Assembly (NCBI GenBank): GCA_051362555.1
Contig: CM120642.1
Span: 6,696,001-6,760,000 of the forward strand
Reading direction: 5' to 3'
DNA from: Lingula anatina
Lineage: Eukaryota; Animalia; Brachiopoda
Length of the DNA stretch: 64,000 nucleotides
Shown: positions 2,303 through 62,174 of the stretch, one piece after another
How the letters are laid out: each line of letters opens with the position of its first letter
Position numbering within the stretch: position 1 is the stretch's first letter
Made by a program: the position numbers and the translations under genes
Notes under the pieces: generated by a model
Database searches by the model: none
What the model was told of the DNA's origin: nothing
Seen by the model: the letters and a program-made list of their open reading frames with translations, nothing else

Positions 2303-3026
2303 GAAATTAATTTGCGCCGCAACGAAATTTACTGTTCGCTTCAGTGTAAAACGATAGAACGAAACTCGCAGTTGGTTGAACAAAGCGATGACACGCACTC
2401 AGGGCTTGGTGTTTCACTTACTGAAATTACCAGTAGATTTGTGTGTAAATTTTTCTTGCTACTCTTTTGTAAGCAAATTTTAATCAACCCTTAAATATTA
2501 TAGTTGATATTTTAAAGACATGTACAGTAATGGGTTTAGTTTTCATTGAGCCTGTTCAGTCCAATATGGTTTCGGTGTACCGTATCATGTTTTAATCTTC
2601 GTTTATCTGTCTTTACACACGCACACGTACAGGGGTATGGGGATTGAACTGTCAGAGCAGTCTGGGCTACCGAGTTGACTGTAGTACATATATATAAATA
2701 ACTGTTTTGTAGCGTGGTCAGTTCATTATGAAGCGACCAAGGGTACTGGTGTTTGGCGATTATTTTACATGTACATGTAGTTATGAAGGTTCGGGTTACC
2801 TTTAGATTTGCAGGTCTATTTTTTTTTTTTTTTTTTTTTTTTTTTTGCAAGATATTTTGATGCAACTAAGAAACGAGCTTATGCAGGTTTTAGTGTCATT
2901 CTTTGTGGTGCATATTTTTGTAACATTTTTAAAACAAAGCAGAAAATGTAGTGTAATTTAAATAAGGTACGTAAAAGCTGTTTGCAATTGAATTTATACA
3001 CAAAACTGTTTTATGCCCATTTCTAT

Positions 3027-3029
<3 letters not shown>

Positions 3030-3079
<50 letters not shown>
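3030..3079. repeat. (AAT)n microsatellite
   Basis: Uninterrupted aat repeats; source of the poly-N stretch in ORF 2982-3344. Confidence 0.95.
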
Positions 3080-3080
<1 letters not shown>

Positions 3081-3184
3081 GTTGTTGTTGCAGACTTGGG
3101 TAAACTACCTGTCCACCCCAGTAGCGGACTTAATGGTCCTGCCCCCCCCCCCCCCCCTTCGGTTTCTGAAAAAATCACAAATTA

Positions 3185-4890
3185 CTATTTGATCCGAATA
3201 CAACTAACAAAGCTGCCTTGTCTCCGTGGTAACCCCGCCGTCCTGGACACAGCTAGACATTTATACGCGGGTTCGAATCCTAAGATTTTCAGTGTGACTT
3301 TTTTGCTCGAAATGATTTCAAAAATTTGCGTTAGATTACTATAAGAGGAAACTCGTACGTGCGGACGGTGGGCGGTTCACTCACGGCGCAGTCGGTTTCG
3401 TGCTTGGTTGCAAAAAATACTTAGCCATCAGAAAAGCATGGTAACAGCAAGTCACGAGTTCAAATCCCAGGTGACGCATGTTCACCATAACAACGACCTG
3501 GCCCTGCAATCGAAAACAAATGCAACCTCTCATGTGTCCCAGCAAATTACCTTTTGCATAAAAATGCGTTTTAGTTTAAAATTAATGATCGATTTTGACA
3601 ACAAATTATTGCTCGTCATTATCATAAAGTCTGCGACGTCAGTTACATTTCTTTTCTCTTTGCTTTGCTTTACCTAATCATACATTTGTTTTTTCATCCT
3701 CTCCCCCCCCTCCCCATTTGGTCTTGCTTATCAAAACTATACATATATTCATACAGCACCCGGGCAACTCCCCAGTAGACGTTTGAAATGGCAAAGACTA
3801 CTCACAACTAAAACCGCCAATTTCTGAACCGCCTTTGGCTCTCATCGTGCTCTAAATATTACGTCACAGGTGAAGTCAAACGTAAACTCAGTGTAACACA
3901 AAATGAAATTAAAAGCACTTGAAGTCATATAGCTAGGAACAAGGCAGGCAGGCTAAGCAATAAAAGGGGCCGAAATTGAAATGTTTCAGTAACTTTCCCT
4001 GTATACAGTAGAATCACGTCACTTCACCCGTAAACCGCATTCAAAATGAAAATAACAGCATCTGAAGTAATCTAAATAGGAACGTTCCTGGCAGGCTTAT
4101 AAAAAAGCTACGTCACTTGAATTGATTCAGTAGCTTTCTGCGGCCAGCAGAAAAAATTGGGATCTTCCCGCCGAAATTATTTGCCAAATATATATATTTT
4201 CAAAATTGCCTTCATCGCAATTGCTTGAATGGAAAGCGCATCAGCTTATACATATATTTGAAGTTTTTTAACGGTTCCCTCTTCTAGTGGGGTTGCTAAA
4301 ACTTAAACCGTCCCATTGTGCTCTTCAGCGTCACTGGTGAAGCCAACCTAAAGTTCAGCATACAACAAAGTCATGGTAAAAAAAAGGTAATCTATCTAGG
4401 AACGCTCCGTGTCGACTTCTCAAATAAGTGCTCGTGTACATGATGAACTTTAATAACAACGTTGATGATAATTCCCTGTTCGAAGACCCGCGATGTGCAG
4501 GATGAAATACATATGTACAGCTCACGGCCTGCTGATTGTTATGGCAGATATATACATGTACAGCCAAACTGGCCCTTCTCTGTGAGAAAGTTGAAAGTTT
4601 CACATTTGATCCAAACTCCACCGACGAAGCTTCCTTGGCTCCGTGGTAACTCCGCCGTCCTGGACACAGCTAGACATTTATACGCGGGTTCAAAAGAATC
4701 CTGAGAATTTCAGTGTGGCTTTTTTGCAGTGTTTGCTCGAAATAATTTCAAAAATTTGCGTTAGATTACTATAAGAGGAAACTTGTACGTATGGTGGTTG
4801 GGCGGTCTGACACAGCGGAGTCGCTAGCGTGTTTGCTTCCAAAAAAAACAGCAAGCCATAAGCAAACCATGAGTAGGCCTACCTAGTAGG
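3185..4890 (+). repeat. Diverged, partial older copies of the 1626-bp array unit
   Basis: Shares ordered motifs with the array unit, e.g. ctccgtggtaac...tacgcgggttcgaatcc (3222-3279, 4639-4692), cacggcgcagtcgg (3382), ggcaaagactact, gtaactttccctgtatacagtagaat, gaatggaaagcgca. Confidence 0.85.
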
Positions 4891-6969
4891 TGCAGTTATT
4901 TGTCGAATATGTTTTTTCCTCAAATTTTGCATCATCGCAATTGCTAGAATGGAAAGCGCACCAGTCTTTGAACATTTGAACTTTTTTAAAGATTCCCTTT
5001 TCATAGGGGCTTGCTTAAACTAAAACCGTCCCGGTGTAAACGGCCTTTGATACCATTGCGTCTTTTTACCGTCATAGTTGAAGCAAACAGTTTCTCAATG
5101 ACTGAAAGTAAAAGAAAGTCATCTATGTAGGAAGGCTCCGTTCCAGGTTGTCAAACAAGGTATAGTGGACGTGACAAACTTCAACGTTCATGAGAAGACC
5201 ATGTTCGTGGCCTGGCGTGGCTCCGGAAAGAAATGCATCACCCTGGCTATCGATCGTAACTGGAGATATATATACGTGTATATCCAAACTGGTCCTCTCC
5301 GTGAGAAGGTAAAAGGTTTCCATTTGATCTCCCGTCAACTAACCAATCTTGTCTGGCTCCGTGGTAACTTTGCCGACTGGAAAACAGACAGATCCACGTA
5401 CGCGGGTTCGAATCCCAGGATGCGACGAAATTTTTTGTATTCCAGAAATAATTTGCAAAAATTGAGTTCGATTACTATAAAAGGAAACTCGTAAGTAAGG
5501 ATGGTGGGCGGGTCTGTCACGGCGCAGTCGGTAGCGTGCACGGCTGCAAAAAAACAAATGCAAAAACGTCGAGTCACGGGTTCGAATCCCAGAAGACGCA
5601 CGTCAGTTCACCACAACAACGTCATCGAACTGGCGCTGGGAGCGGGAAGCCACAGGAACGAATGCGCAGCCTCTTGTGGGTCCTCGCAAATTATCTTTTG
5701 CACCATTAATAAAAAAAGTTGTTGTCACAGTGGTGCATCTATGAAGATCTTACATCTTTTTTTAGTAGATTTATTACTTAAAGATAAATACGGTGATTTG
5801 ATATGAACCTTTCGCATAAAAAAACGGCATAGTTTACAATAAGTGATCGACTTGACATAGACTTTTTGCTGGTCATTCTCATCAAGACTGCATCGTCAAT
5901 AACACTTCCTTTCTCTTCACTTAAAAGACCTCAAAATGGTGTTGACGAGGGTAAGCTCATTGAACTCTATCTTTTTCCAGGTACGTCACATGTCAAACTT
6001 GAATCGAGTCAATTGCTGACCCGATACGGCGCCATGCATGTAAGACTGCCATTTCATCGAAAAGTCCTTTTTTTCTCGGTGGGATAATCTGCAAGAAAAG
6101 TTCTCAATTTTTTTTTTTCGAAAGTAGCGTTGCCGCTATTGGTTTGCCCATTCATACATTTTTTTCTCATGTCCTTTGCCTATCAAGACTATTCGTATGG
6201 TCACACAGTCCCCGGGGCAATTCCACAGTCTGCATTTCAAATGGCAAAGACTACTCCAAACTAAAATCGTCAAGGTGTAAACCGCTTTGGATCTCAACGT
6301 GCTCTGTAACGCCACAGGCGAAGTCGAACGTAACCTCAGTGTAACACAAAATGAAAATAAAATCACTTGAAATCATATAGCTAGGAACCTGACAGGCAGG
6401 CTTATCAATAAAAGCGACCGAAATTGATATGATTCAGTAACTTTCCCTGTATACAGTAGAATGACGTCACATCACTCGTAAACCGCATTCAACAGAAAAA
6501 GATGGTACCTTGTGGGTGGAGTTATATGCCAAATATGTTTTCTTTTCTCAAATTTTGTATCCTCCCAATTGCTAGAATGGAAAGCGCACCAGACTTACAC
6601 ATTTGAATTTTTTTAACGATTCCCTTTTCATAGGGGCTTGCTTAAACTAAAACCGTCCCGGTGTGAACGGCCTTTGATACCATTTCGTCTTTTTACCGTC
6701 ATAGTTGAAGCAAACACTTTCTCAATGACTGAAAGTAAAAGAAAGTCATATATGTAGGAAGGTTCCGTTCCAGGTTGTCAAACAAGGTCTAGTGGACGTG
6801 ACAAACTTCAACGTTCATGAGAAGACCATGTTCGTGGCCTGGCGTGGCTCGGGAAAGAAACGCAGCACCCTGGCTATCGATGGTAACTGGAGATATATAT
6901 ACGTGTATATCCAAACTGGCCCTCTCCGTGAGAAGGTAAAAAGTTTCCATTTGATCTTCCGTCATCTAA

Positions 6970-7064
6970 CCAAGTTTGTCTGGCTCCGTGGTAACTTTGC
7001 CGACTGGAAGACAGGCAGACCCACGTACGCGGGTTCGAATCCGAGGATGCGACGAAATATTTTT
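6970..7064 (+). ncRNA. Putative Pol III small RNA cassette A (~95 nt), shown for array copy 2 and present in all 11 units
   Basis: A-box-like TGGCTCCGTGGT 6981-6992, B box GGTTCGAATCC 7032-7042, T5 terminator 7060-7064, short closing stem tttgtc/gacgaa. Transcription is inferred, not shown. Confidence 0.5.
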
Positions 7065-7136
7065 ATTCCAGAAATAATTTGCAAAAAATTGAGTTCGATT
7101 ACTATAAAAGGAAACTCGTAAGTACGGAGGGTGGGC

Positions 7137-7324
7137 GGGTCTGTCACGGCGCAGTCGGTAGCGTGCACGGCTGCAAAAAAACAAATGCAAAAACGTCGAG
7201 TCACGGGTTCGAATCCCAGAAGACGCACGTCAGTTCACCACAACAACGTCATCGAACTGGCGCTGGGAGCGGGAAGCCACAGGAACGAATGCGGCCTCTC
7301 GTGGGTCCTCGCAAATTACCTTTT
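7137..7324 (+). ncRNA. Putative Pol III cassette B (~185 nt): tRNA-like head plus two 3' hairpins, shown for array copy 2 and present in all 11 units
   Basis: TATAAAAG at 7103-7110 (~30 bp upstream), D-arm/A box GCGC-AGTCGGTA-GCGT at ~7149-7164, CTGCAAA anticodon-like loop, B box GGTTCGAATCC 7206-7216, hairpin cgtcagttc/gaactggcg (7228-7262), second hairpin 7269-7312, TTTT at 7321-7324. Confidence 0.5.
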
Positions 7325-10300
7325 GCACCATTAATAAAAAAAGTTGTTGTCACAGTGGTGCATCTATGAAGATCTTACATCTTTTTTAGTAGATTTATTA
7401 CTTAAAGATAAATACGGTGATTTGATATGAACCTTTTGCATAAAAAAACGGCATAGTTTACAATAAGTGATCGACTTGACATAGACTTTTTGCTGGTCAT
7501 TCTCATCAAGACTGCATCGTCAATAACACTTCCTTTCTCATCACTTAAAAGACCTCAAAATGGTGTTGACGAGGGTAAGCTCATTGAACTCTATCTTTTT
7601 CCAGGTACGTCACATGTCAAACTTGAATCGAGTCAATTGCTGACCCGATACGGCGCCATGCATGTAAGACTGCCATTTCATCGAAAAGTCCTTTTTTTCT
7701 CGGTGGGATAATCTGCAAGAAAAGTTCTCAATTTTTTTTTTTTTCGAAAGTAGCGTTGCCGCTATTGGTTTGCCCATTCATACATTTTTTTCTCATGTCC
7801 TTTGCCTATCAAGACTATTCGTATGGTCACACAGTCCCCGGGGCAATTCCACAGTCTGCATTTCAAATGGCAAAGACTACTCCAAACTAAAATCGTCAAG
7901 GTGTAAACCGCTTTGGATCTCAACGTGCTCTATAACACCACAGGCGAAGTCGAACGTAACCTCAGTGTAACACAAAATGAAAATAAAATCACTTGAAATC
8001 ATATAGCTAGGAACCTGACAGGCAGGCTTATCAATAAAAGCGACCGAAATTGATATGATTCAGTAACTTTCCCTGTATACAGTAGAATGACGTCACATCA
8101 CTCGTAAACCGCATTCAACAGAAAAAGATGGTATCTTGTGGGTGGAGTTATATGCCAAATATGTTTTCTTTTCTCAAATTTTGTATCCTCCCAATTGCTA
8201 GAATGGAAAGCGCACCAGACTTACACATTTGAATTTTTTTAACGATTCCCTTTTCATAGGGGCTTGCTTAAACTAAAACCGTCCCGGTGTGAACGGCCTT
8301 TGATACCATTTCGTCTTTTTACCGTCATAGTTGAAGCAAACACTTTCTCAATGACTGAAAGTAAAAGAAAGTCATATATGTAGGAAGGCTCCGTTCCAGG
8401 TTGTCAAACAAGGTCTAGTGGACGTGACAAACTTCAACGTTCATGAGAAGACCATGTTCGTGGCCTGGCGTGGCTCGGGAAAGAAACGCAGCACCCTGGC
8501 TATCGATGGTAACTGGAGATATATATACGTGTATATCCAAACTGGCCCTCTCCGTGAGAAGGTAAAAAGTTTCCATTTGATCTTCTGTCATCTAACCAAG
8601 TTTGTCTGGCTCCGTGGTAACTTTGCCGACTGGAAGACAGGCAGACCCACGTACGCGGGTTCGAATCCGAGGATGCGACGAAATATTTTTATTCCAGAAA
8701 TAATTTGCAAAAAATTGAGTTCGATTACTATAAAAGGAAACTCGTAAGTACGGAGGGTGGGCGGGTCTGTCACGGCGCAGTCGGTAGCGTGCACGGCTGC
8801 AAAAAAACAAATGCAAAAACGTCGAGTCACGGGTTCGAATCCCAGAAGACGCACGTCAGTTCACCACAACAACGTCATCGAACTGGCGCTGGGAGCGGGA
8901 AGCCACAGGAACGAATGCGGCCTCTCGTGGGTCCTCGCAAATTACCTTTTGCACCATTAATAAAAAAAGTTGTTGTCACAGTGGTGCATCTATGAAGATC
9001 TTACATCTTTTTTAGTAGATTTATTACTTAAAGATAAATACGGTGATTTGATATGAACCTTTTGCATAAAAAACGGCATAGTTTACAATAAGTGATCGAC
9101 TTGACATAGACTTTTTGCTGGTCATTCTCATCAAGACTGCATCGTCAATAACACTTCCTTTCTCTTCACTTAAAAGACCTCAAAATGGTGTTGACGAGGG
9201 TAAGCTCATTGAACTCTATCTTTTTCCAGGTACGTCACATGTCAAACTTGAATCGAGTCAATTGCTGACCCGATACGGCGCCATGCATGTAAGACTGCCA
9301 TTTCATCGAAAAGTCCTTTTTTTCTCGGTGGGATAATCTGCAAGAAAAGTTCTCAATTTTTTTTTTTCGAAAGTAGCGTTGCCGCTATTGGTTTGCCCAT
9401 TCATACATTTTTTTCTCATGTCCTTTGCCTATCAAGACTATTCGTATGGTCACACAGTCCCCGGGCAATTCCACAGTCTGCATTTCAAATGGCAAAGACT
9501 ACTCCAAACTAAAATCGTCAAGGTGTAAACCGCTTTGGATCTCAACGTGCTCTATAACACCACAGGCGAAGTCGAACGTAACCTCAGTGTAACACAAAAT
9601 GAAAATAAAATCACTTGAAATCATATAGCTAGGAACCTGACAGGCAGGCTTATCAATAAAAGCGACCGAAATTGATATGATTCAGTAACTTTCCCTGTAT
9701 ACAGTAGAATGACGTCACATCACTCGTAAACCGCATTCAACAGAAAAAGATGGTATCTTGTGGGTGGAGTTATATGCCAAATATGTTTTCTTTTCTCAAA
9801 TTTTGTATCCTCCCAATTGCTAGAATGGAAAGCGCACCAGACTTACACATTTGAATTTTTTTAACGATTCCCTTTTCATAGGGGCTTGCTTAAACTAAAA
9901 CCGTCCCGGTGTGAACGGCCTTTGATACCATTTCGTCTTTTTACCGTCATAGTTGAAGCAAACACTTTCTCAATGACTGAAAGTAAAAGAAAGTCATATA
10001 TGTAGGAAGGCTCCGTTCCAGGTTGTCAAACAAGGTCTAGTGGACGTGACAAACTTCAACGTTCATGAGAAGACCATGTTCGTGGCCTGGCGTGGCTCGG
10101 GAAAGAAACGCAGCACCCTGGCTATCGATGGTAACTGGAGATATATATACGTGTATATCCAAACTGGCCCTCTCCGTGAGAAGGTAAAAAGTTTCCATTT
10201 GATCTTCTGTCATCTAACCAAGTTTGTCTGGCTCCGCGGTAACTTTGCCGACTGGAAGACAGGCAGACCCACGTACGCGGGTTCGAATCCGAGGATGCGA

Positions 10301-13300
10301 CGAAATATTTTTATTCCAGAAATAATTTGCAAAAAATTGAGTTCGATTACTATAAAAGGAAACTCGTAAGGACGGAGGGTGGGCGGGTCTGTCACGGCGC
10401 AGTCGGTAGCGTGCACGGCTGCAAAAAAACAAATGCAAAAACGTCGAGTCACGGGTTCGAATCCCAGAAGACGCACGTCAGTTCACCACAACAACGTCAT
10501 CGAACTGGCGCTGGGAGCGGGAAGCCACAGGAACGAATGCGGCCTCTCGTGGGTCCTCGCAAATTACCTTTTGCACCATTAATAAAAAAAGTTGTTGTCA
10601 CAGTGGTGCATCTATGAAGATCTTACATCTTTTTTAGTAGATTTATTACTTAAAGATAAATACGGTGATTTGATATGAACCTTTTGCATAAAAAAACGGC
10701 ATAGTTTACAATAAGTGATCGACTTGACATAGACTTTTTGCTGGTCATTCTCATCAAGACTGCATCGTCAATAACACTTCCTTTCTCTTCACTTAAAAGA
10801 CCTCAAAATGGTGTTGACGAGGGTAAGCTCATTGAACTCTATCTTTTTCCAGGTACGTCACATGTCAAACTTGAATCGAGTCAATTGCTGACCCGATACG
10901 GCGCCATGCATGTAAGACTGCCATTTCATCGAAAAGTCCTTTTTTTCTCGGTGGGATAATCTGCAAGAAAAGTTCTCAATTTTTTTTTTTTTCGAAAGTA
11001 GCGTTGCCGCTATTGGTTTGCCCATTCATACATTTTTTTCTCATGTCCTTTGCCTATCAAGACTATTCGTATGGTCACACAGTCCCCGGGGCAATTCCAC
11101 AGTCTGCATTTCAAATGGCAAAGACTACTCCAAACTAAAATCGTCAAGGTGTAAACCGCTTTGGATCTCAACGTGCTCTATAACACCACAGGCGAAGTCG
11201 AACGTAACCTCAGTGTAACACAAAATGAAAATAAAATCACTTGAAATCATATAGCTAGGAACCTGACAGGCAGGCTTATCAATAAAAGCGACCGAAATTG
11301 ATATGATTCAGTAACTTTCCCTGTATACAGTAGAATGACGTCACATCACTCGTAAACCGCATTCAACAGAAAAAGATGGTATCTTGTGGGTGGAGTTATA
11401 TGCCAAATATGTTTTCTTTTCTCAAATTTTGTATCCTCCCAATTGCTAGAATGGAAAGCGCACCAGACTTACACATTTGAATTTTTTTAACGATTCCCTT
11501 TTCATAGGGGCTTGCTTAAACTAAAACCGTCCCGGTGTGAACGGCCTTTGATACCATTTCGTCTTTTTACCGTCATAGTTGAAGCAAACACTTTCTCAAT
11601 GACTGAAAGTAAAAGAAAGTCATATATGTAGGAAGGCTCCGTTCCAGGTTGTCAAACAAGGTCTAGTGGACGTGACAAACTTCAACGTTCATGAGAAGAC
11701 CATGTTCGTGGCCTGGCGTGGCTCGGGAAAGAAACGCAGCACCCTGGCTATCGATGGTAACTGGAGATATATATACGTGTATATCCAAACTGGCCCTCTC
11801 CGTGAGAAGGTAAAAAGTTTCCATTTGATCTTCTGTCATCTAACCAAGTTTGTCTGGCTCCGCGGTAACTTTGCCGACTGGAAGACAGGCAGACCCACGT
11901 ACGCGGGTTCGAATCCGAGGATGCGACGAAATATTTTTATTCCAGAAATAATTTGCAAAAAATTGAGTTCGATTACTATAAAAGGAAACTCGTAAGGACG
12001 GAGGGTGGGCGGGTCTGTCACGGCGCAGTCGGTAGCGTGCACGGCTGCAAAAAAACAAATGCAAAAACGTCGAGTCACGGGTTCGAATCCCAGAAGACGC
12101 ACGTCAGTTCACCACAACAACGTCATCGAACTGGCGCTGGGAGCGGGAAGCCACAGGAACGAATGCGGCCTCTCGTGGGTCCTCGCAAATTACCTTTTGC
12201 ACCATTAATAAAAAAAGTTGTTGTCACAGTGGTGCATCTATGAAGATCTTACATCTTTTTTAGTAGATTTATTACTTAAAGATAAATACGGTGATTTGAT
12301 ATGAACCTTTTGCATAAAAAAACGGCATAGTTTACAATAAGTGATCGACTTGACATAGACTTTTTGCTGGTCATTCTCATCAAGACTGCATCGTCAATAA
12401 CACTTCCTTTCTCTTCACTTAAAAGACCTCAAAATGGTGTTGACGAGGGTAAGCTCATTGAACTCTATCTTTTTCCAGGTACGTCACATGTCAAACTTGA
12501 ATCGAGTCAATTGCTGACCCGATACGGCGCCATGCATGTAAGACTGCCATTTCATCGAAAAGTCCTTTTTTTCTCGGTGGGATAATCTGCAAGAAAAGTT
12601 CTCAATTTTTTTTTTTTTTTTCGAAAGTAGCGTTGCCGCTATTGGTTTGCCCATTCATACATTTTTTTCTCATGTCCTTTGCCTATCAAGACTATTCGTA
12701 TGGTCACACAGTCCCCGGGGCAATTCCACAGTCTGCATTTCAAATGGCAAAGACTACTCCAAACTAAAATCGTCAAGGTGTAAACCGCTTTGGATCTCAA
12801 CGTGCTCTATAACACCACAGGCGAAGTCGAACGTAACCTCAGTGTAACACAAAATGAAAATAAAATCACTTGAAATCATATAGCTAGGAACCTGACAGGC
12901 AGGCTTATCAATAAAAGCGACCGAAATTGATATGATTCAGTAACTTTCCCTGTATACAGTAGAATGACGTCACATCACTCGTAAACCGCATTCAACAGAA
13001 AAAGATGGTATCTTGTGGGTGGAGTTATATGCCAAATATGTTTTCTTTTCTCAAATTTTGTATCCTCCCAATTGCTAGAATGGAAAGCGCACCAGACTTA
13101 CACATTTGAATTTTTTTAACGATTCCCTTTTCATAGGGGCTTGCTTAAACTAAAACCGTCCCGGTGTGAACGGCCTTTGATACCATTTCGTCTTTTTACC
13201 GTCATAGTTGAAGCAAACACTTTCTCAATGACTGAAAGTAAAAGAAAGTCATATATGTAGGAAGGCTCCGTTCCAGGTTGTCAAACAAGGTCTAGTGGAC

Positions 13301-16300
13301 GTGACAAACTTCAACGTTCATGAGAAGACCATGTTCGTGGCCTGGCGTGGCTCGGGAAAGAAACGCAGCACCCTGGCTATCGATGGTAACTGGAGATATA
13401 TATACGTGTATATCCAAACTGGCCCTCTCCGTGAGAAGGTAAAAAGTTTCCATTTGATCTTCTGTCATCTAACCAAGTTTGTCTGGCTCCGTGGTAACTT
13501 TGCCGACTGGAAGACAGGCAGACCCACGTACGCGGGTTCGAATCCGAGGATGCGACGAAATATTTTTATTCCAGAAATAATTTGCAAAAAATTGAGTTCG
13601 ATTACTATAAAAGGAAACTCGTAAGTACGGAGGGTGGGCGGGTCTGTCACGGCGCAGTCGGTAGCGTGCACGGCTGCAAAAAAACAAATGCAAAAACGTC
13701 GAGTCACGGGTTCGAATCCCAGAAGACGCACGTCAGTTCACCACAACAACGTCATCGAACTGGCGCTGGGAGCGGGAAGCCACAGGAACGAATGCGGCCT
13801 CTCGTGGGTCCTCGCAAATTACCTTTTGCACCATTAATAAAAAAAGTTGTTGTCACAGTGGTGCATCTATGAAGATCTTACATCTTTTTTAGTAGATTTA
13901 TTACTTAAAGATAAATACGGTGATTTGATATGAACCTTTTGCATAAAAAACGGCATAGTTTACAATAAGTGATCGACTTGACATAGACTTTTTGCTGGTC
14001 ATTCTCATCAAGACTGCATCGTCAATAACACTTCCTTTCTCTTCACTTAAAAGACCTCAAAATGGTGTTGACGAGGGTAAGCTCATTGAACTCTATCTTT
14101 TTCCAGGTACGTCACATGTCAAACTTGAATCGAGTCAATTGCTGACCCGATACGGCGCCATGCATGTAAGACTGCCATTTCATCGAAAAGTCCTTTTTTT
14201 CTCGGTGGGATAATCTGCAAGAAAAGTTCTCAATTTTTTTTTTTTTCGAAAGTAGCGTTGCCGCTATTGGTTTGCCCATTCATACATTTTTTTCTCATGT
14301 CCTTTGCCTATCAAGACTATTCGTATGGTCACACAGTCCCCGGGCAATTCCACAGTCTGCATTTCAAATGGCAAAGACTACTCCAAACTAAAATCGTCAA
14401 GGTGTAAACCGCTTTGGATCTCAACGTGCTCTATAACACCACAGGCGAAGTCGAACGTAACCTCAGTGTAACACAAAATGAAAATAAAATCACTTGAAAT
14501 CATATAGCTAGGAACCTGACAGGCAGGCTTATCAATAAAAGCGACCGAAATTGATATGATTCAGTAACTTTCCCTGTATACAGTAGAATGACGTCACATC
14601 ACTCGTAAACCGCATTCAACAGAAAAAGATGGTATCTTGTGGGTGGAGTTATATGCCAAATATGTTTTCTTTTCTCAAATTTTGTATCCTCCCAATTGCT
14701 AGAATGGAAAGCGCACCAGACTTACACATTTGAATTTTTTTAACGATTCCCTTTTCATAGGGGCTTGCTTAAACTAAAACCGTCCCGGTGTGAACGGCCT
14801 TTGATACCATTTCGTCTTTTTACCGTCATAGTTGAAGCAAACACTTTCTCAATGACTGAAAGTAAAAGAAAGTCATATATGTAGGAAGGCTCCGTTCCAG
14901 GTTGTCAAACAAGGTCTAGTGGACGTGACAAACTTCAACGTTCATGAGAAGACCATGTTCGTGGCCTGGCGTGGCTCGGGAAAGAAACGCAGCACCCTGG
15001 CTATCGATGGTAACTGGAGATATATATACGTGTATATCCAAACTGGCCCTCTCCGTGAGAAGGTAAAAAGTTTCCATTTGATCTTCTGTCATCTAACCAA
15101 GTTTGTCTGGCTCCGCGGTAACTTTGCCGACTGGAAGACAGGCAGACCCACGTACGCGGGTTCGAATCCGAGGATGCGACGAAATATTTTTATTCCAGAA
15201 ATAATTTGCAAAAAATTGAGTTCGATTACTATAAAAGGAAACTCGTAAGGACGGAGGGTGGGCGGGTCTGTCACGGCGCAGTCGGTAGCGTGCACGGCTG
15301 CAAAAAAACAAATGCAAAAACGTCGAGTCACGGGTTCGAATCCCAGAAGACGCACGTCAGTTCACCACAACAACGTCATCGAACTGGCGCTGGGAGCGGG
15401 AAGCCACAGGAACGAATGCGGCCTCTCGTGGGTCCTCGCAAATTACCTTTTGCACCATTAATAAAAAAAGTTGTTGTCACAGTGGTGCATCTATGAAGAT
15501 CTTACATCTTTTTTAGTAGATTTATTACTTAAAGATAAATACGGTGATTTGATATGAACCTTTTGCATAAAAAAACGGCATAGTTTACAATAAGTGATCG
15601 ACTTGACATAGACTTTTTGCTGGTCATTCTCATCAAGACTGCATCGTCAATAACACTTCCTTTCTCTTCACTTAAAAGACCTCAAAATGGTGTTGACGAG
15701 GGTAAGCTCATTGAACTCTATCTTTTTCCAGGTACGTCACATGTCAAACTTGAATCGAGTCAATTGCTGACCCGATACGGCGCCATGCATGTAAGACTGC
15801 CATTTCATCGAAAAGTCCTTTTTTTCTCGGTGGGATAATCTGCAAGAAAAGTTCTCAATTTTTTTTTTTTTCGAAAGTAGCGTTGCCGCTATTGGTTTGC
15901 CCATTCATACATTTTTTTCTCATGTCCTTTGCCTATCAAGACTATTCGTATGGTCACACAGTCCCCGGGGCAATTCCACAGTCTGCATTTCAAATGGCAA
16001 AGACTACTCCAAACTAAAATCGTCAAGGTGTAAACCGCTTTGGATCTCAACGTGCTCTATAACACCACAGGCGAAGTCGAACGTAACCTCAGTGTAACAC
16101 AAAATGAAAATAAAATCACTTGAAATCATATAGCTAGGAACCTGACAGGCAGGCTTATCAATAAAAGCGACCGAAATTGATATGATTCAGTAACTTTCCC
16201 TGTATACAGTAGAATGACGTCACATCACTCGTAAACCGCATTCAACAGAAAAAGATGGTATCTTGTGGGTGGAGTTATATGCCAAATATGTTTTCTTTTC

Positions 16301-19300
16301 TCAAATTTTGTATCCTCCCAATTGCTAGAATGGAAAGCGCACCAGACTTACACATTTGAATTTTTTTAACGATTCCCTTTTCATAGGGGCTTGCTTAAAC
16401 TAAAACCGTCCCGGTGTGAACGGCCTTTGATACCATTTCGTCTTTTTACCGTCATAGTTGAAGCAAACACTTTCTCAATGACTGAAAGTAAAAGAAAGTC
16501 ATATATGTAGGAAGGCTCCGTTCCAGGTTGTCAAACAAGGTCTAGTGGACGTGACAAACTTCAACGTTCATGAGAAGACCATGTTCGTGGCCTGGCGTGG
16601 CTCGGGAAAGAAACGCAGCACCCTGGCTATCGATGGTAACTGGAGATATATATACGTGTATATCCAAACTGGCCCTCTCCGTGAGAAGGTAAAAAGTTTC
16701 CATTTGATCTTCTGTCATCTAACCAAGTTTGTCTGGCTCCGCGGTAACTTTGCCGACTGGAAGACAGGCAGACCCACGTACGCGGGTTCGAATCCGAGGA
16801 TGCGACGAAATATTTTTATTCCAGAAATAATTTGCAAAAAATTGAGTTCGATTACTATAAAAGGAAACTCGTAAGGACGGAGGGTGGGCGGGTCTGTCAC
16901 GGCGCAGTCGGTAGCGTGCACGGCTGCAAAAAAACAAATGCAAAAACGTCGAGTCACGGGTTCGAATCCCAGAAGACGCACGTCAGTTCACCACAACAAC
17001 GTCATCGAACTGGCGCTGGGAGCGGGAAGCCACAGGAACGAATGCGGCCTCTCGTGGGTCCTCGCAAATTACCTTTTGCACCATTAATAAAAAAAGTTGT
17101 TGTCACAGTGGTGCATCTATGAAGATCTTACATCTTTTTTAGTAGATTTATTACTTAAAGATAAATACGGTGATTTGATATGAACCTTTTGCATAAAAAA
17201 ACGGCATAGTTTACAATAAGTGATCGACTTGACATAGACTTTTTGCTGGTCATTCTCATCAAGACTGCATCGTCAATAACACTTCCTTTCTCTTCACTTA
17301 AAAGACCTCAAAATGGTGTTGACGAGGGTAAGCTCATTGAACTCTATCTTTTTCCAGGTACGTCACATGTCAAACTTGAATCGAGTCAATTGCTGACCCG
17401 ATACGGCGCCATGCATGTAAGACTGCCATTTCATCGAAAAGTCCTTTTTTTCTCGGTGGGATAATCTGCAAGAAAAGTTCTCAATTTTTTTTTTTTTTTC
17501 GAAAGTAGCGTTGCCGCTATTGGTTTGCCCATTCATACATTTTTTTCTCATGTCCTTTGCCTATCAAGACTATTCGTATGGTCACACAGTCCCCGGGGCA
17601 ATTCCACAGTCTGCATTTCAAATGGCAAAGACTACTCCAAACTAAAATCGTCAAGGTGTAAACCGCTTTGGATCTCAACGTGCTCTATAACACCACAGGC
17701 GAAGTCGAACGTAACCTCAGTGTAACACAAAATGAAAATAAAATCACTTGAAATCATATAGCTAGGAACCTGACAGGCAGGCTTATCAATAAAAGCGACC
17801 GAAATTGATATGATTCAGTAACTTTCCCTGTATACAGTAGAATGACGTCACATCACTCGTAAACCGCATTCAACAGAAAAAGATGGTATCTTGTGGGTGG
17901 AGTTATATGCCAAATATGTTTTCTTTTCTCAAATTTTGTATCCTCCCAATTGCTAGAATGGAAAGCGCACCAGACTTACACATTTGAATTTTTTTAACGA
18001 TTCCCTTTTCATAGGGGCTTGCTTAAACTAAAACCGTCCCGGTGTGAACGGCCTTTGATACCATTTCGTCTTTTTACCGTCATAGTTGAAGCAAACACTT
18101 TCTCAATGACTGAAAGTAAAAGAAAGTCATATATGTAGGAAGGCTCCGTTCCAGGTTGTCAAACAAGGTCTAGTGGACGTGACAAACTTCAACGTTCATG
18201 AGAAGACCATGTTCGTGGCCTGGCGTGGCTCGGGAAAGAAACGCAGCACCCTGGCTATCGATGGTAACTGGAGATATATATACGTGTATATCCAAACTGG
18301 CCCTCTCCGTGAGAAGGTAAAAAGTTTCCATTTGATCTTCTGTCATCTAACCAAGTTTGTCTGGCTCCGTGGTAACTTTGCCGACTGGAAGACAGGCAGA
18401 CCCACGTACGCGGGTTCGAATCCGAGGATGCGACGAAATATTTTTATTCCAGAAATAATTTGCAAAAAATTGAGTTCGATTACTATAAAAGGAAACTCGT
18501 AAGGACGGAGGGTGGGCGGGTCTGTCACGGCGCAGTCGGTAGCGTGCACGGCTGCAAAAAAACAAATGCAAAAACGTCGAGTCACGGGTTCGAATCCCAG
18601 AAGACGCACGTCAGTTCACCACAACAACGTCATCGAACTGGCGCTGGGAGCGGGAAGCCACAGGAACGAATGCGGCCTCTCGTGGGTCCTCGCAAATTAC
18701 CTTTTGCACCATTAATAAAAAAAGTTGTTGTCACAGTGGTGCATCTATGAAGATCTTACATCTTTTTTAGTAGATTTATTACTTAAAGATAAATACGGTG
18801 ATTTGATATGAACCTTTTGCATAAAAAACGGCATAGTTTACAATAAGTGATCGACTTGACATAGACTTTTTGCTGGTCATTCTCATCAAGACTGCATCGT
18901 CAATAACACTTCCTTTCTCTTCACTTAAAAGACCTCAAAATGGTGTTGACGAGGGTAAGCTCATTGAACTCTATCTTTTTCCAGGTACGTCACATGTCAA
19001 ACTTGAATCGAGTCAATTGCTGACCCGATACGGCGCCATGCATGTAAGACTGCCATTTCATCGAAAAGTCCTTTTTTTCTCGGTGGGATAATCTGCAAGA
19101 AAAGTTCTCAATTTTTTTTTTTTTCGAAAGTAGCGTTGCCGCTATTGGTTTGCCCATTCATACATTTTTTTCTCATGTCCTTTGCCTATCAAGACTATTC
19201 GTATGGTCACACAGTCCCCGGGGCAATTCCACAGTCTGCATTTCAAATGGCAAAGACTACTCCAAACTAAAATCGTCAAGGTGTAAACCGCTTTGGATCT

Positions 19301-22300
19301 CAACGTGCTCTATAACACCACAGGCGAAGTCGAACGTAACCTCAGTGTAACACAAAATGAAAATAAAATCACTTGAAATCATATAGCTAGGAACCTGACA
19401 GGCAGGCTTATCAATAAAAGCGACCGAAATTGATATGATTCAGTAACTTTCCCTGTATACAGTAGAATGACGTCACATCACTCGTAAACCGCATTCAACA
19501 GAAAAAGATGGTATCTTGTGGGTGGAGTTATATGCCAAATATGTTTTCTTTTCTCAAATTTTGTATCCTCCCAATTGCTAGAATGGAAAGCGCACCAGAC
19601 TTACACATTTGAATTTTTTTAACGATTCCCTTTTCATAGGGGCTTGCTTAAACTAAAACCGTCCCGGTGTGAACGGCCTTTGATACCATTTCGTCTTTTT
19701 ACCGTCATAGTTGAAGCAAACACTTTCTCAATGACTGAAAGTAAAAGAAAGTCATATATGTAGGAAGGCTCCGTTCCAGGTTGTCAAACAAGGTCTAGTG
19801 GACGTGACAAACTTCAACGTTCATGAGAAGACCATGTTCGTGGCCTGGCGTGGCTCGGGAAAGAAACGCAGCACCCTGGCTATCGATGGTAACTGGAGAT
19901 ATATATACGTGTATATCCAAACTGGCCCTCTCCGTGAGAAGGTAAAAAGTTTCCATTTGATCTTCTGTCATCTAACCAAGTTTGTCTGGCTCCGCGGTAA
20001 CTTTGCCGACTGGAAGACAGGCAGACCCACGTACGCGGGTTCGAATCCGAGGATGCGACGAAATATTTTTATTCCAGAAATAATTTGCAAAAAATTGAGT
20101 TCGATTACTATAAAAGGAAACTCGTAAGTACGGAGGGTGGGCGGGTCTGTCACGGCGCAGTCGGTAGCGTGCACGGCTGCAAAAAAACAAATGCAAAAAC
20201 GTCGAGTCACGGGTTCGAATCCCAGAAGACGCACGTCAGTTCACCACAACAACGTCATCGAACTGGCGCTGGGAGCGGGAAGCCACAGGAACGAATGCGG
20301 CCTCTCGTGGGTCCTCGCAAATTACCTTTTGCACCATTAATAAAAAAAGTTGTTGTCACAGTGGTGCATCTATGAAGATCTTACATCTTTTTTAGTAGAT
20401 TTATTACTTAAAGATAAATACGGTGATTTGATATGAACCTTTTGCATAAAAAAACGGCATAGTTTACAATAAGTGATCGACTTGACATAGACTTTTTGCT
20501 GGTCATTCTCATCAAGACTGCATCGTCAATAACACTTCCTTTCTCTTCACTTAAAAGACCTCAAAATGGTGTTGACGAGGGTAAGCTCATTGAACTCTAT
20601 CTTTTTCCAGGTACGTCACATGTCAAACTTGAATCGAGTCAATTGCTGACCCGATACGGCGCCATGCATGTAAGACTGCCATTTCATCGAAAAGTCCTTT
20701 TTTTCTCGGTGGGATAATCTGCAAGAAAAGTTCTCAATTTTTTTTTTTTTCGAAAGTAGCGTTGCCGCTATTGGTTTGCCCATTCATACATTTTTTTCTC
20801 ATGTCCTTTGCCTATCAAGACTATTCGTATGGTCACACAGTCCCCGGGGCAATTCCACAGTCTGCATTTCAAATGGCAAAGACTACTCCAAACTAAAATC
20901 GTCAAGGTGTAAACCGCTTTGGATCTCAACGTGCTCTATAACACCACAGGCGAAGTCGAACGTAACCTCAGTGTAACACAAAATGAAAATAAAATCACTT
21001 GAAATCATATAGCTAGGAACCTGACAGGCAGGCTTATCAATAAAAGCGACCGAAATTGATATGATTCAGTAACTTTCCCTGTATACAGTAGAATGACGTC
21101 ACATCACTCGTAAACCGCATTCAACAGAAAAAGATGGTATCTTGTGGGTGGAGTTATATGCCAAATATGTTTTCTTTTCTCAAATTTTGTATCCTCCCAA
21201 TTGCTAGAATGGAAAGCGCACCAGACTTACACATTTGAATTTTTTTAACGATTCCCTTTTCATAGGGGCTTGCTTAAACTAAAACCGTCCCGGTGTGAAC
21301 GGCCTTTGATACCATTTCGTCTTTTTACCGTCATAGTTGAAGCAAACACTTTCTCAATGACTGAAAGTAAAAGAAAGTCATATATGTAGGAAGGCTCCGT
21401 TTCAGGTTGTCAAACAAGGTCTAGTGGACGTGACAAACTTCAACGTTCATGAGAAGACCATGTTCGTGGCCTGGCGTGGCTCGGGAAAGAAACGCAGCAC
21501 CCTGGCTATCGATGGTAACTGGAGATATATATACGTGTATATCCAAACTGGCCCTCTCCGTGAGAAGGTAAAAAGTTTCCATTTGATCTTCTGTCATCTA
21601 ACCAAGTTTGTCTGGCTCCGTGGTAACTTTGCCGACTGGAAGACAGGCAGACCCACGTACGCGGGTTCGAATCCGAGGATGCGACGAAATATTTTTATTC
21701 CAGAAATAATTTGCAAAAAATTGAGTTCGATTACTATAAAAGGAAACTCGTAAGTACGGAGGGTGGGCGGGTCTGTCACGGCGCAGTCGGTAGCGTGCAC
21801 GGCTGCAAAAAAACAAATGCAAAAACGTCGAGTCACGGGTTCGAATCCCAGAAGACGCACGTCAGTTCACCACAACAACGTCATCGAACTGGCGCTGGGA
21901 GCGGGAAGCCACAGGAACGAATGCGGCCTCTCGTGGGTCCTCGCAAATTACCATTTGCACCATTAATAAAAAAAGTTGTTGTCACAGTGGTGCATCTATG
22001 AAGATCTTACATCTTTTTTAGTAGATTTATTACTTAAAGATAAATACGGTGATTTGATATGAACCTTTTGCATAAAAAACGGCATAGTTTACAATAAGTG
22101 ATCGACTTGACATAGACTTTTTGCTGGTCATTCTCATCAAGACTGCATCGTCAATAACACTTCCTTTCTCTTCACTTAAAAGACCTCAAAATGGTGTTGA
22201 CGAGGGTAAGCTCATTGAACTCTATCTTTTTCCAGGTACGTCACATGTCAAACTTGAATCGAGTCAATTGCTGACCCGATACGGCGCCACGCATGTAAGA

Positions 22301-22755
22301 CTGCCATTTCATCGAAAAGTGCTATTTTCTCGTTGGGATAATCTGCAAGAAAAGTTCTCAATTTTTTTCAAAAATAGCGTTGCCGCTATTGCTTTACCCA
22401 TTCATACATTTTTTTCCTTGTCCTTTGCCTATCAAGACTGTTCGTATGGTCACACAGTCCCTGGGGAAATGCCACAGTCTGCATTTCAAATGGCAAAGAC
22501 TACTCCAAACTAAAATCGTCAAGGTGTAAACCGCTTTGGATCTCAACGTGCTCTATAACGCCACAGGCGAAGTCGAACGTAACCTCAGTGTAACACAAAA
22601 TGAAAATAAAATCACTTGAAATCATATAGCTAGGAACATGACAGGCAGGCTTATCAATGAAAGCGACCGAAATTGATATGATTCAGTAACTTTCCCTGTA
22701 TACAGTAGAACCACATCACATCACCCGTAAACCGCATTCAACAGAAAAAGATGGT

Positions 22756-23050
22756 AGGCCTATCGCCAACTCATGAGTTCAAATCCTAGATGACGCAGAT
22801 GTCAGTTCACCACAACAAGAACGAGCTTGCCTCGTATGCAGGCGTTCGTGTGTCCGGAAAAATTACTTTTTGCATAATAATCCGGTATAGTTTAGAATTA
22901 GTGATCAATTTTGACAACAATTTATTGCTCGTCATTAACATAAAGTCTGCATTCTCAATTATATTTCTTTTCTCTACTTTGTCTTCAAAATGATGCTTAG
23001 GCGGGGATGGTTTAGAATAACTGATCGATTTGACAACAACTGGTCATTAT
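22756..23050 (+). repeat. Diverged partial unit at the right edge of the array
   Basis: gagttcaaatccta...gtcagttcaccacaacaa...aattactttttgcata...gtgatcaattttgacaacaa matches unit and relic sequence (3455-3660). Confidence 0.8.
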
Positions 23051-23077
23051 CTTAAATTCACGATTTTGCATCCGCGG

Positions 23078-23078
<1 letters not shown>

Positions 23079-23109
<31 letters not shown>
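23079..23109. repeat. (GT)n microsatellite
   Basis: Run of tg dinucleotides; another at ~24067-24092. Confidence 0.9.
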
Positions 23110-23112
<3 letters not shown>

Positions 23113-27574: not shown

Positions 27575-27654
27575 GCCCTGTATTCCACTGGGCACTGAAT
27601 GAAAATTTGATACAGACTGCGCTGCATTTTGAATAAAGATTTTAATTTTTTATT

Positions 27655-27979
27655 TAAATAAACAGTCTGAGTAAAAATACAGAAGAATTAGATGTATTAT
27701 TAAAGACAAATAATCCACTGAAGCAGTGATTAAGTGCATTAATTTTACAGTTCTCTATGCCATTCACCATTTTCTACTTTCACTTTTGATTCAACCATGA
27801 TGGCTTCATTTAGGAATTCAAAACATTCATGTTAACATGTACATTTGCTGTTGCTTGAGAAGACCTATATTTCTTTACTCAACTTTATAATCTACTGTCA
27901 CACAAGTTTTTTCCTGAGCTGTAAATTAATAATTATCATCGAGAAATTTTAACAAAATTTGTGAAGATACCAAACATAC
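27655..27979 (-). repeat. Inverted copy of DUSP12 intron 25200-~25532
   Basis: Reverse complement aligns along its length, e.g. gtatgtttggtatcttcacaaatt, gttgagtaaagaaatataggtct, cagcaaatgtacatgttaacatgaatgttttgaattcct, aatcactgcttcagtggattatttgtctt. Confidence 0.92.
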
Positions 27980-28389
27980 AAACTTTAGTGAGTATATAAT
28001 GGATCCAATGCTGCACTACTGCGTAGGGCATACAAATCATAAGTTCAAATTGAACACGTTCATTTGCGTTATATAATTACATGTACGGCCATAAAACGAG
28101 TCGCATGCACAAGCAAGCGACTGTATTAAGTTAATATACGAGTCTGGGGGTTATTTTTGTGAACTGAACACACCTTCCTTTTTACCCCCCCCCCCCCCCC
28201 ACCCCCACCCACCCCAAAAAAAGTTTTTCCTTTAATCACGTTGGGGACATTCAGTCTAAATTAAGAGTAAAGTACGTTATTAAAATTGCACATTTTTAAA
28301 GCTAGTCCAGGAGGAAAACCAGAGATAAAACCCTTTTATATATCTTTCTTTATGAACATGGCGAAAACGGCTCTGGAAACCGGGCAATT

Positions 28390-29310
28390 GAGCGCAGCTG
28401 CGCACGCCAACGACAGCGCTGTGCCTGACCCACCTGCCCACCGTATATACGTTATACTTCTTATAGTTATATATTCAATTTTCAGAAATCATATAGAGCA
28501 AAATTACTGCATTACACACTCTAGCATTCGAACATGAGGACAAGGGTATAGCTGTGTTTAAAACAGCGGAATTATCAAGAAGTCGCAGAGGCTTCGATGG
28601 TAGATCTTAGACCAAATGGAAACCTACCTTGTCACGCAGAAGGCCAGTTTGGTTGTACACGTTTACATCTGCATTTACAATCGATAGCCCGGGTGCCGTA
28701 CAGATGTATTTCATCTTGTGATACGCCAGTCCCCGAACATGGTCTTATCATCACCGTCGAAGTTCACAATGTTCACAGGGCCTTGTTTGAGAAACCGACA
28801 CGGAGCGTTTTTTTCTGTGACTATGTTTTGTGCTGAGATTTAGTTTGGGTTCACCTAAGACGTTAAAGAGCACAATGGGATCAAAGTCGGCCCGGTTTTG
28901 GCTTAAAGGGATAATAACTCTTCGTATGAGATCTATATATCATAATAAAAATATTGTGAACAACTCATAGAAATATAATATATTCTGTTTTACCACAAAA
29001 CGGCAGTTATAGCTATTATTCTGATATCTAAAGTTGTCTTTAGACCACGTGACCTCCATTGATGGCCATAAAAAACTTTTTAGAAAAAAATTCCAGGGAC
29101 TAACTTTGAATGTAAAAATGGACTCATTAACCATTGGTAAGTATGGGAAAATTAGTTTACTCCAGGAAAATTCATTTTTTGGCCAAAACGAAGAGTTATT
29201 ATCCCTTTAAGCAAGCCCCTATAAGAAGAAGGAATCATTTCAAAACGTTCAAACGTGTACAAGCAATTGCAACGATACGAATTTTAAGAAAAACACATTT
29301 GTTAAATAAT
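28390..29310 (-). repeat. Diverged inverted copy of part of the array unit, interrupted by a MITE
   Basis: Reverse complement matches unit/relic segments: ccaaactggcc, accatgttcg, cgctccgtgtcg, cccattgtgctctt, ataggggcttgcttaa, caattgct, ggtgggc..gcgtgc.c.gctgc. Confidence 0.8.
28907..29206. mobile_element. 300-bp MITE with TTAA target-site duplication and AGGG...CCCT termini (Kolobok-type)
   Basis: TTAA at 28903-28906 and 29207-29210; perfect 19-bp TIR agggataataactcttcgt/acgaagagttattatccct. Removing it restores the unit sequence ...ttaa gcaagcccctat. Confidence 0.85.
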
Positions 29311-29365
29311 TTTGTAGAGAAGATACCGTTCTCGTCTGCAGATCGCGATATACAGGTGGTAAGAC

Positions 29366-62172: not shown

Positions 62173-62174
62173 AT

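What the first reader, a model, noticed from the sequence alone, without database searches (positions are those of the whole stretch)
4890..22755. Homogenised 11-copy array of a 1.6-kb unit carrying paired Pol III small-RNA cassettes: candidate undescribed ncRNA gene cluster
Seen: the unit has no credible protein ORF, yet each copy holds two complete type-2 Pol III architectures in tandem, ~75 bp apart and on the same strand. Each has an A box, a perfect GGTTCGAATCC B box and its own oligo-T terminator; the second has TATAAAAG ~30 bp upstream. That makes 22 cassettes. Known: tandem, concertedly evolving kb-scale units are how 5S, snRNA, SL-RNA and tRNA genes are arrayed, and paired A/B-box RNAs occur in adenovirus VA I/II and EBV EBER1/2. 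I recognise no 5S, U-snRNA or intact tRNA here. Inference: this is an amplified gene array for two unannotated small RNAs, or a dense TFIIIC-binding boundary between the SLC22 and DUSP12 genes, rather than inert satellite.
Basis: partly seen in the sequence, partly recalled or inferred. Interest (0 to 1): 0.85.

Follow-up and report, generated by a model that had tools for sequence, protein, structure and literature searches.

The report
Brachiopod tandem repeat carrying tRNA-relic promoters
This is a real, recently expanded run of eleven near-identical 1.6-kb repeats in the lamp shell Lingula, each carrying two tRNA-like promoter relics; it belongs to an old, scattered repeat family and is most likely satellite-like repeat DNA rather than a cluster of working small-RNA genes, though small-RNA data were not available to settle that.

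Summary
The array is real: 11 head-to-tail units of 1617-1629 bp at 4881-22755, the inner nine differing by 0-6 substitutions, in a brachiopod (the flanking DUSP12 exon is 99% identical to Lingula anatina). All 22 B boxes are perfect. Both A boxes miss one consensus base, and unit 11 has lost the second terminator. A third old copy lies inverted at 28.4-29.3 kb. In four DNA runs, 962-1471 contigs each match the family. The A/B boxes are better kept than their surroundings (86% vs 73%), but the would-be RNA bodies are not, and they show almost no covariation. Four RNA-seq runs show only traces of sense reads, but none is recorded as a small-RNA library. No Rfam, tRNA, vault, Helenus, Helentron or inverted-repeat signature was found. 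Best reading: a satellite-like repeat with tRNA-derived Pol III promoters, of the OAX / PolIII-TAN / 4.5SH-array kind, likely pasted in as a circle and expanded by unequal exchange. A functional RNA gene family remains possible (about 0.17).

The parts
4881..22755 (+). Young tandem array, exactly 11 units of 1617-1629 bp, head to tail; start and end are in the same register of the unit
4874..4881 (.). TAGGCCTA at the left end of the array (6-bp duplication plus a TA shared with the unit junction)
   Evidence: sequence
22755..22762 (.). TAGGCCTA at the right end of the array
   Evidence: sequence
6970..7064 (+). Cassette 1 in unit 2: A box 6981-6991 (one mismatch to consensus), perfect B box 7032-7042, five T at 7060-7064; no upstream TATA
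7103..7110 (+). TATA-like box 44 bp upstream of A box 2; start of a module of about 67 bp that is the most widely shared part of the family
7137..7324 (+). Cassette 2 in unit 2: A box 7147-7158 (one mismatch), A-rich variable spacer, perfect B box 7206-7216, four T at 7321-7324; tRNA-like, 50 of 73 positions match a metagenomic tRNA-Met gene
3187..4871 (+). Older tandem copies of the same family (period about 1.4 kb, 67-83% identical to the young unit); the second copy is interrupted by the array between its A2 and B2 boxes
22763..22980 (+). Continuation of the interrupted older copy (B box 2, T run and downstream part)
28394..29340 (-). Inverted, decayed family copy (67% identical), itself interrupted by a MITE with terminal inverted repeats and a TTAA duplication at about 28905-29210; lacks B box 2

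Best explanation
The array is a young expansion of an old, dispersed Lingula repeat family whose unit carries two tRNA-like A/B-box modules, and it is most likely satellite-like repeat DNA rather than a cluster of working RNA genes. Shown: a whole-number multimer sits inside an older copy of the same family between two TAGGCCTA motifs. The unit-to-unit junction is ordinary internal family sequence, also seen in the older copies. The two end units diverge by about 4.7% on their outer sides, while the inner units are almost identical. Inferred: a circle of at least two units was looped out of another array, was opened at an arbitrary point and reinserted at a break, helped by a TA microhomology. 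Unequal exchange then multiplied the hybrid unit made from the two founders. Inferred: what the family keeps is the promoter (boxes, TATA, T runs), not an RNA fold. Any short Pol III transcripts would be by-products, and intact promoters may persist because they favour amplification of the unit (the link between Pol III sites and recombination is recalled, from no call).
For: Insertion into an older copy: the sequence left of 4874 and right of 22762 aligns as one continuous cassette-2 copy. The junction is shared with the old copy at about 4160-4177, with the inverted copy, and with a different contig variant in run X1, so it is not a transposon end. No terminal inverted repeat (7-8 of 20 matches), no LTR pair, no subterminal inverted repeat of 11 bp or more apart from one A/T-rich arm. 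Dispersed family: 1168, 1408, 962 and 1471 contigs lie on 2900-6506 at 80% or more in 4 of 4 DNA runs. RNA bodies are not conserved: body 1 matches 25/40, 26/40 and 23/40; a non-cassette stretch matches 270/318. Pairs with a change on both sides: 1 of 12 (5 copies) and 0 of 50 (3 copies). Folding z-scores run from -1.71 to +0.99 in 7 of 7 folds. RNA lay on 21139-28100: sense depth in the two bins over the cassettes is 0/0 (X14), 0/0.39 (X15) and 0.32/0.20 (X11), although all units would pile onto this one, while DUSP12 bins reach 4, 7 and 130 with spliced reads. Whole-number reinsertion of circles and insertion of a young satellite into an older one by microhomology are described for Drosophila Rsp-like (PMC7403614, passages).
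Against: The boxes are better kept than the surrounding 680 bp: 107/124 vs 994/1359 aligned positions over three older copies, binomial p 3e-4. Caveats: the copies are related, alignments anchor on motifs, and one B box with a 4-nt insertion was counted as 11/11. Both T runs survive in the two old forward copies. The TATA-to-A-box module has 8-17 times the summed contig depth of the cassette-1 bin. A distant locus matches it over 67 nt at about 92% while its flanks fail to align at the 90% cut-off (loose ends at 21731 and 21797). Something is therefore constrained. The RNA runs are poly(A), oligo-dT or unspecified libraries of 150-nt reads, read at about 6% (three runs) or 25% (one), from animals not shown to carry the array; a 95-190-nt RNA could be missed. 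Only three older copies could be aligned, and the true extent of the family unit is unknown because no genome was held.
Confidence: 0.6

Rival explanations
1. A multicopy Pol III small-RNA gene family of Lingula (4.5SH-like, or a divergent vault RNA) evolving by birth and death, with this array as a currently active locus. Cassette 2 is the better candidate promoter; cassette 1 has the vault-like size.
For: TATA, A, B and T-run geometry fits type-2 genes with a TATA-like box (PMC7279448, passages; positions). Boxes are conserved above background, with a variable spacer between A2 and B2, which is the pattern described for vault RNAs (PMC7058938, passages). 4.5SH genes sit in 4-5-kb tandem units. 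The array is multicopy in four samples of three studies, roughly 10-18 times single-copy contig depth (the tool warns that depth is a poor copy count).
Against: No Rfam family, vault included, at gathering score in 64 kb or with any relevance at E up to 10 in three short scans. No conserved fold or terminal panhandle. Bodies are 58-81% identical between copies. Only trace sense reads. The insertion split an older copy between its boxes.
Confidence: 0.17
2. The unit is, or is part of, a non-autonomous transposon of an unrecognised class (circle-forming tyrosine-recombinase type, rolling-circle type, or a TA-targeting element inserting in tandem) that carries Pol III promoters, with real ends that the window does not show.
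For: Many diverged copies with reshuffled modules (joints that skip or go back). A 6-bp duplication at the insertion. Units are separated by TA. Tandem double insertion of transposons is published (PMC5932611, search listing only). Box conservation without RNA structure is what Helenus shows (PMC10886601, sections).
Against: The junction is not better conserved than other sequence. No TIR, LTR or subTIR. No hammerhead core. 15 runs of four or more T on the + strand would stop a unit-length Pol III transcript. No similarity to the tyrosine-recombinase retroelement at 59-63.6 kb. TAGGCCTA occurs three more times in the window, against 0.35 expected in all, so it is a common local motif and not diagnostic.
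Confidence: 0.18
3. The array works as a TFIIIC-binding boundary between SLC22 and DUSP12.
For: 22 perfect B boxes end about 1 kb upstream of the first DUSP12 splice donor at 23783; boxes are conserved above background.
Against: The array is a recent insertion and expansion, so it cannot be an ancient boundary. Older copies at the same place have lost boxes by insertion and substitution. Nothing here tests binding.
Confidence: 0.05

Closest known systems
tRNA-derived Pol III tandem repeats: Xenopus OAX / satellite I, newt PolIII/TAN, Rana/polIII (PMC10702118, Background section)
   Same: Head-to-tail repeat with a tRNA-derived segment and no matching SINE identified.
   Different: Here the unit is 1.6 kb with two cassettes and a TATA-like box; the array is short (11 units) and lies between genes; no transcript is shown. 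The host is a brachiopod, not an amphibian. No sequence comparison with those families was possible.
Rodent 4.5SH RNA gene arrays (PMC7279448, abstract and passages)
   Same: kb-scale tandem unit with a type-2 promoter and a TATA-like box about 30 bp upstream.
   Different: 4.5SH derives from 7SL/B1, has hundreds of tandem copies and gives an abundant RNA; here the cassettes are tRNA-like and no abundant RNA was seen.
Helenus (TRIMp3), including three Lingula families (PMC10886601, parts 1-3 of 6 and supplement search)
   Same: Same host; tRNA-like A/B boxes conserved without tRNA structure; tandem arrays are reported for one fish family.
   Different: Lingula Helenus-1 is 323 bp with 132-bp LTRs and a 4-bp duplication. 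The unit has no LTR pair or matching primer site, and 0 of 5 unit motifs occur in the supplement.
Drosophila Rsp-like euchromatic satellite clusters (PMC7403614, passages)
   Same: A young repeat inserted into an older satellite at a microhomology; arrays whose truncated ends add up to a full monomer; local expansion by unequal exchange.
   Different: No Pol III cassettes are described in the passages read; here the host repeat is an older member of the same family.
Vault RNA genes (PMC7058938, passages)
   Same: A and B boxes conserved around a variable centre; upstream elements; small clusters.
   Different: No Rfam vault match and no terminal stem predicted across copies; the cassettes are embedded in a repeat family.

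Membership tests
tRNA-derived Pol III tandem repeat (OAX / PolIII-TAN kind) | Head-to-tail tandem array with concerted evolution | tested here: met
   11 units, inner nine 0-6 substitutions apart; junction also in contigs of runs X2 and X7
tRNA-derived Pol III tandem repeat (OAX / PolIII-TAN kind) | tRNA-derived segment with A and B boxes | tested here: met
   Two A..B pairs per unit, 0 of 1000 shuffles with two. Cassette 2 matches tRNA-Met gene L007:681-753 at 50 of 73; L007 was found with a cassette-2 motif, so the isotype is only a lead. Cassette 1 does not beat shuffles against that tRNA.
tRNA-derived Pol III tandem repeat (OAX / PolIII-TAN kind) | Transcription by Pol III into a discrete RNA | tested here: inconclusive
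   Trace sense reads in four runs that are not recorded as small-RNA libraries
tRNA gene array | Intact cloverleaf tRNA genes | tested here: not met
   ARAGORN 0 genes in 64 kb; no Rfam tRNA hit
Vault RNA | Type-2 A and B boxes with a nearby oligo-T terminator | tested here: met
   Cassette 1: T run 28 nt after the start of the B box; cassette 2: 115 nt
Vault RNA | Match to the vault model and a conserved terminal stem (the stem is recalled, from no call) | tested here: not met
   No vault hit at E up to 10; the consensus fold pairs no 5' end with a 3' end in cassette 1. The model's reach into brachiopods is unknown.
Vault RNA | Association with the vault particle | not testable with these tools
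   Needs immunoprecipitation of the major vault protein
Helenus / TRIMp3 | Two LTRs with primer-binding site and polypurine tract, 4-bp duplication | tested here: not met
   the duplication here is 6 bp (8 with the shared TA)
Helentron / HINE | 11-15-bp subterminal inverted repeats, 3' stem-loop, insertion in TT, no target duplication (PMC4067079, passages) | tested here: not met
   No such inverted repeat or stem-loop at the array ends; flanks are TAGGCCTA, not T-rich. True family ends are unknown, so a larger carrier element is not excluded.
SINE | Homology begins at the tRNA-like head; tail of simple repeats | tested here: not met
   Homology between copies runs about 600 bp upstream of cassette 2, through the TATA box and cassette 1; no simple-repeat tail in the array
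SINE | Sequence match to the Lingula SINE LinSINE1 or to other Repbase Lingula families | not testable with these tools
   LinSINE1 is named in PMC4824008 (one passage), but its consensus is in a figure; Repbase is not held
Cut-and-paste DNA transposon (MITE) | Terminal inverted repeats | tested here: not met
   7-8 of 20 terminal positions complementary in 4 of 4 units tested

The most novel reading that the evidence does not exclude
Lingula has an undescribed family of Pol III small-RNA genes, hundreds of copies strong at its TATA-to-A-box module, that spreads as DNA circles carrying two linked RNA genes; this 11-unit array is its freshly amplified active locus and could encode the brachiopod vault RNA or a 4.5SH-like regulator.
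Probability: 0.15. Interest if true: 0.65.

Novelty: new member of a known kind. Interest (0 to 1): 0.35.

Why it matters
As a repeat, it is a clean snapshot of how kb-scale arrays are born: a whole-number multimer inserted into an older relative, with the two founder units still visible at the edges. It extends tRNA-derived Pol III tandem repeats to a brachiopod. It also warns that perfect B boxes in tandem do not by themselves make an RNA gene cluster. If discrete RNAs were found, it would add a lineage-specific Pol III RNA family in a phylum where my searches listed no description of one.

Tried and rejected
No genome was held, so no genome-wide search was possible. No RNA holder was listed by the run index; this says nothing about expression. 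Assembly artefact: rejected, because the head-to-tail junction appears in 2 of 4 DNA runs among the joints shown and unit-like contigs are multicopy in 4 of 4. Protein-coding repeat: 0 of 4 unit ORFs scanned hit Pfam, out of 17 ORFs of 50 aa or more. Known RNA families: 0 at gathering score; 7, 5 and 2 chance-level hits in three E-value scans. Hammerhead core: absent on both strands. Relatives elsewhere: 0 hits for the TATA module in metagenome contigs and 0 for the A2 motif in viral contigs. A looser TATA-gap-A pattern gave 9 loci: 3 of 9 are tRNA genes at the match and none matches the unit beyond 15-20 nt of box sequence. A literature search for the flanking octamer gave only irrelevant primer hits. 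Search 19 assumed an echinoderm host, which overturned. Pfam did not recognise 3 of 3 short SLC22 exons; the PDB search of one did. Earlier-findings look-ups by sequence and by place returned nothing.
Full report
Host and setting. An exon at 24925-25200 translates without a stop and is 99% identical to Lingula anatina DUSP12, so the window is from a brachiopod. An exon at 1338-1520 matches SLC22 transporters in the PDB (best E 1.7e-7). RNA reads splice DUSP12 from a donor at 23783 onward, about 1 kb beyond the array. No whole genome was held.

The array. Eleven units of 1617-1629 bp run head to tail from 4881 to 22755. Units 2-10 differ by 0-6 substitutions plus homopolymer lengths. Unit 1 differs from them by 44-46 substitutions, nearly all in its first 940 bp. 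Unit 11 differs by 23-27, nearly all in its last 480 bp. That is about 4.7% on each outer side. I infer that two founder units had diverged by that much and that the hybrid between them was multiplied recently. The array is not an assembly artefact. Contigs of runs X2 and X7 contain the head-to-tail junction (2 of 4 runs among the 15 joints shown; 191 were not shown). Unit-like contigs have roughly 10-18 times the depth of presumed single-copy contigs in 4 of 4 runs from three studies. The tool warns that such depth is a poor copy count, and one study may be the source of the assembly.

The cassettes. Every unit has A1, B1, a run of 5-6 T, TATAAAAG, A2, B2 and, in 10 of 11 units, a run of 4 T 115-117 nt after B2. 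Both B boxes match the consensus in PMC7279448 (passage); each A box misses one conserved base. Two strict A..B pairs were found in 0 of 1000 shuffles. ARAGORN finds no tRNA and Rfam no family. Cassette 2 aligns to a tRNA-Met gene from a metagenome locus at 50 of 73 positions with an A-rich insert in the anticodon region. That locus was found with a cassette-2 motif, so tRNA origin is likely and the isotype is only a lead. Cassette 1 did not beat shuffles against that tRNA.

The same family lies on both sides of the array and inverted 5.6 kb downstream. The sequence at 3187-4871 is an older tandem with a period of about 1.4 kb, 67-83% identical to the young unit. Its second copy stops between A2 and B2 at 4874 and resumes at 22763. 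TAGGCCTA stands at both ends of the array; the other old copy has no such motif at that place. So the array is a later insertion into an older relative. It starts and ends in the same register, yet that junction is internal family sequence: the old copy, the inverted copy and a variant contig in X1 all run through it. There are no terminal inverted repeats, LTRs or subterminal inverted repeats. A whole-number array cut at an internal point is what reinsertion of a circle looped out of another array gives, as described for Rsp-like satellites (PMC7403614, passages); that step is inferred. TAGGCCTA is itself over-represented here (three further sites, 0.35 expected in all), so it may mark an old break rather than a specific target.

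Family size. In 4 of 4 DNA runs, 962-1471 contigs lie on 2900-6506 at 80% or more, with many skips and returns between modules. Summed depth in the cassette-1 bin is about 22-35 times single copy. In the TATA-to-A2 bin it is about 250-400 times. These are rough figures, but they show a dispersed family whose most widely shared part is the promoter module of cassette 2. RNA reads from another locus match that module over 67 nt, antisense, with unaligned ends on both sides.

Promoter or RNA? Over three older copies the four boxes match at 107 of 124 positions and the rest of unit positions 140-818 at 994 of 1359 (p 3e-4; the copies are related and one interrupted B box was scored as intact). The bodies do not: 25/40, 26/40 and 23/40 for cassette 1; 29/37 and 26/36 between A2 and B2; 68/84 and 61/79 after B2; against 270/318 for a stretch with no cassette. 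Consensus folds have 1 of 12 and 0 of 50 pairs with changes on both sides (only 5 and 3 sequences, so weak). None of 7 single folds is clearly better than shuffles (z -1.71 to +0.99). In two of three old copies boxes are broken. Conserved boxes without RNA structure are also what Kojima reports for Helenus (PMC10886601, parts 1-3 of 6).

Expression. Four RNA runs (4 of the 9 listed) were laid on unit 11 plus DUSP12 at 90%. In the three runs that behave as stranded, sense depth in the two bins over the cassettes is 0-0.39, about one read or pair, while DUSP12 bins reach 4, 7 and 130. X17 looks unstranded and shows only low partial matches. The libraries are poly(A), oligo-dT or unspecified, were sampled at about 6-25%, and the animals were not shown to carry the array. 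This argues against a very abundant, library-competent RNA and does not exclude a short one.

Comparison. It is not a tRNA array, SINE, MITE, Helenus or Helentron by the features tested. It is built like the tRNA-derived Pol III tandem repeats OAX, PolIII/TAN and Rana/polIII (PMC10702118, Background) and, in layout, like 4.5SH arrays. Vault RNA was taken seriously because of the box-plus-variable-centre pattern (PMC7058938, passages), but there is no model match or conserved terminal stem. Searches (Lingula with SINE, repeat, satellite and Pol III terms; the top 20 of 75 and 15 of 110 papers were listed) showed Helenus and MetaSINE papers but no description of this family. Repbase and the LinSINE1 consensus could not be seen, so it may already be catalogued. 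PMC4233971 (passages) added nothing beyond naming 4.5SH; PMC5932611 was seen only as a listing. Earlier scan notes describe similar paired or tandem tRNA-relic repeats in other genomes; they are unchecked leads and are not counted as support.

Verdict. Observation largely right, interpretation partly. Best reading (0.6): a satellite-like repeat with tRNA-derived promoters, likely spread as a circle and expanded by unequal exchange. Rivals: unrecognised non-autonomous transposon (0.18), functional small-RNA gene family (0.17), boundary element (0.05). New member of a known kind; interest 0.35.

Noticed in passing
window 59159-63576, minus strand: A tyrosine-recombinase (DIRS-like) retrotransposon: gag-like ORF, RT with a Dam-like methyltransferase stretch, phage-integrase ORF, and inverted repeats of 82 bp at 59159-59240 and 63483-63564. 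No similarity to the array unit.
   Followed up: partly
window 46743-50787 and 51753-54778, plus strand: Two LINE-type elements with frameshifted ORFs; the first has Pfam endonuclease and RT hits, the second was read from the ORF list only.
   Followed up: partly
window 28905-29210: A MITE of about 300 bp with terminal inverted repeats and a TTAA duplication (Kolobok- or piggyBac-like; label recalled) interrupts the inverted family copy.
   Followed up: partly
window 3120-3180 and 29370-29640: Related GC-tract MITE-like sequences (hAT-like ends; label recalled) sit directly before both the first old family copy and the inverted copy, hinting that the two arose by an inverted duplication.
   Followed up: no
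window 25197-25530 and 27657-27982: An 84% identical inverted duplicate of a DUSP12 intron lies near the gene's 3' end.
   Followed up: no
window, outside the array: TACATGTA (11 seen, 1.4 expected) and TAGGCCTA (5 seen including both array ends, 0.35 expected) are over-represented in 46 kb; possibly transposon footprints.
   Followed up: partly
window 7318-7439 (each unit): About 105 bp with two hairpins, flanked by a 10-bp direct repeat, is present in the young unit and absent from the older copies.
   Followed up: no
window 6644-6760 and 7884-8013: A module of about 110 bp occurs twice per unit at 66% identity, so the unit itself grew by internal duplication.
   Followed up: no
window 36673-37566: A separate 146-bp tandem repeat, 5.4 copies.
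   Followed up: no
window 30958-35069, minus strand: Collagen-like gene with a Laminin G3 domain.
   Followed up: partly
L001:1215-1276, L002:475-536, L005:494-555, L006:1898-1959: Four near-identical metagenome loci with a TATA box, an A-box-like and a B-box-like motif but no tRNA call; unrelated to the Lingula unit beyond the boxes, possibly another Pol III element.
   Followed up: no
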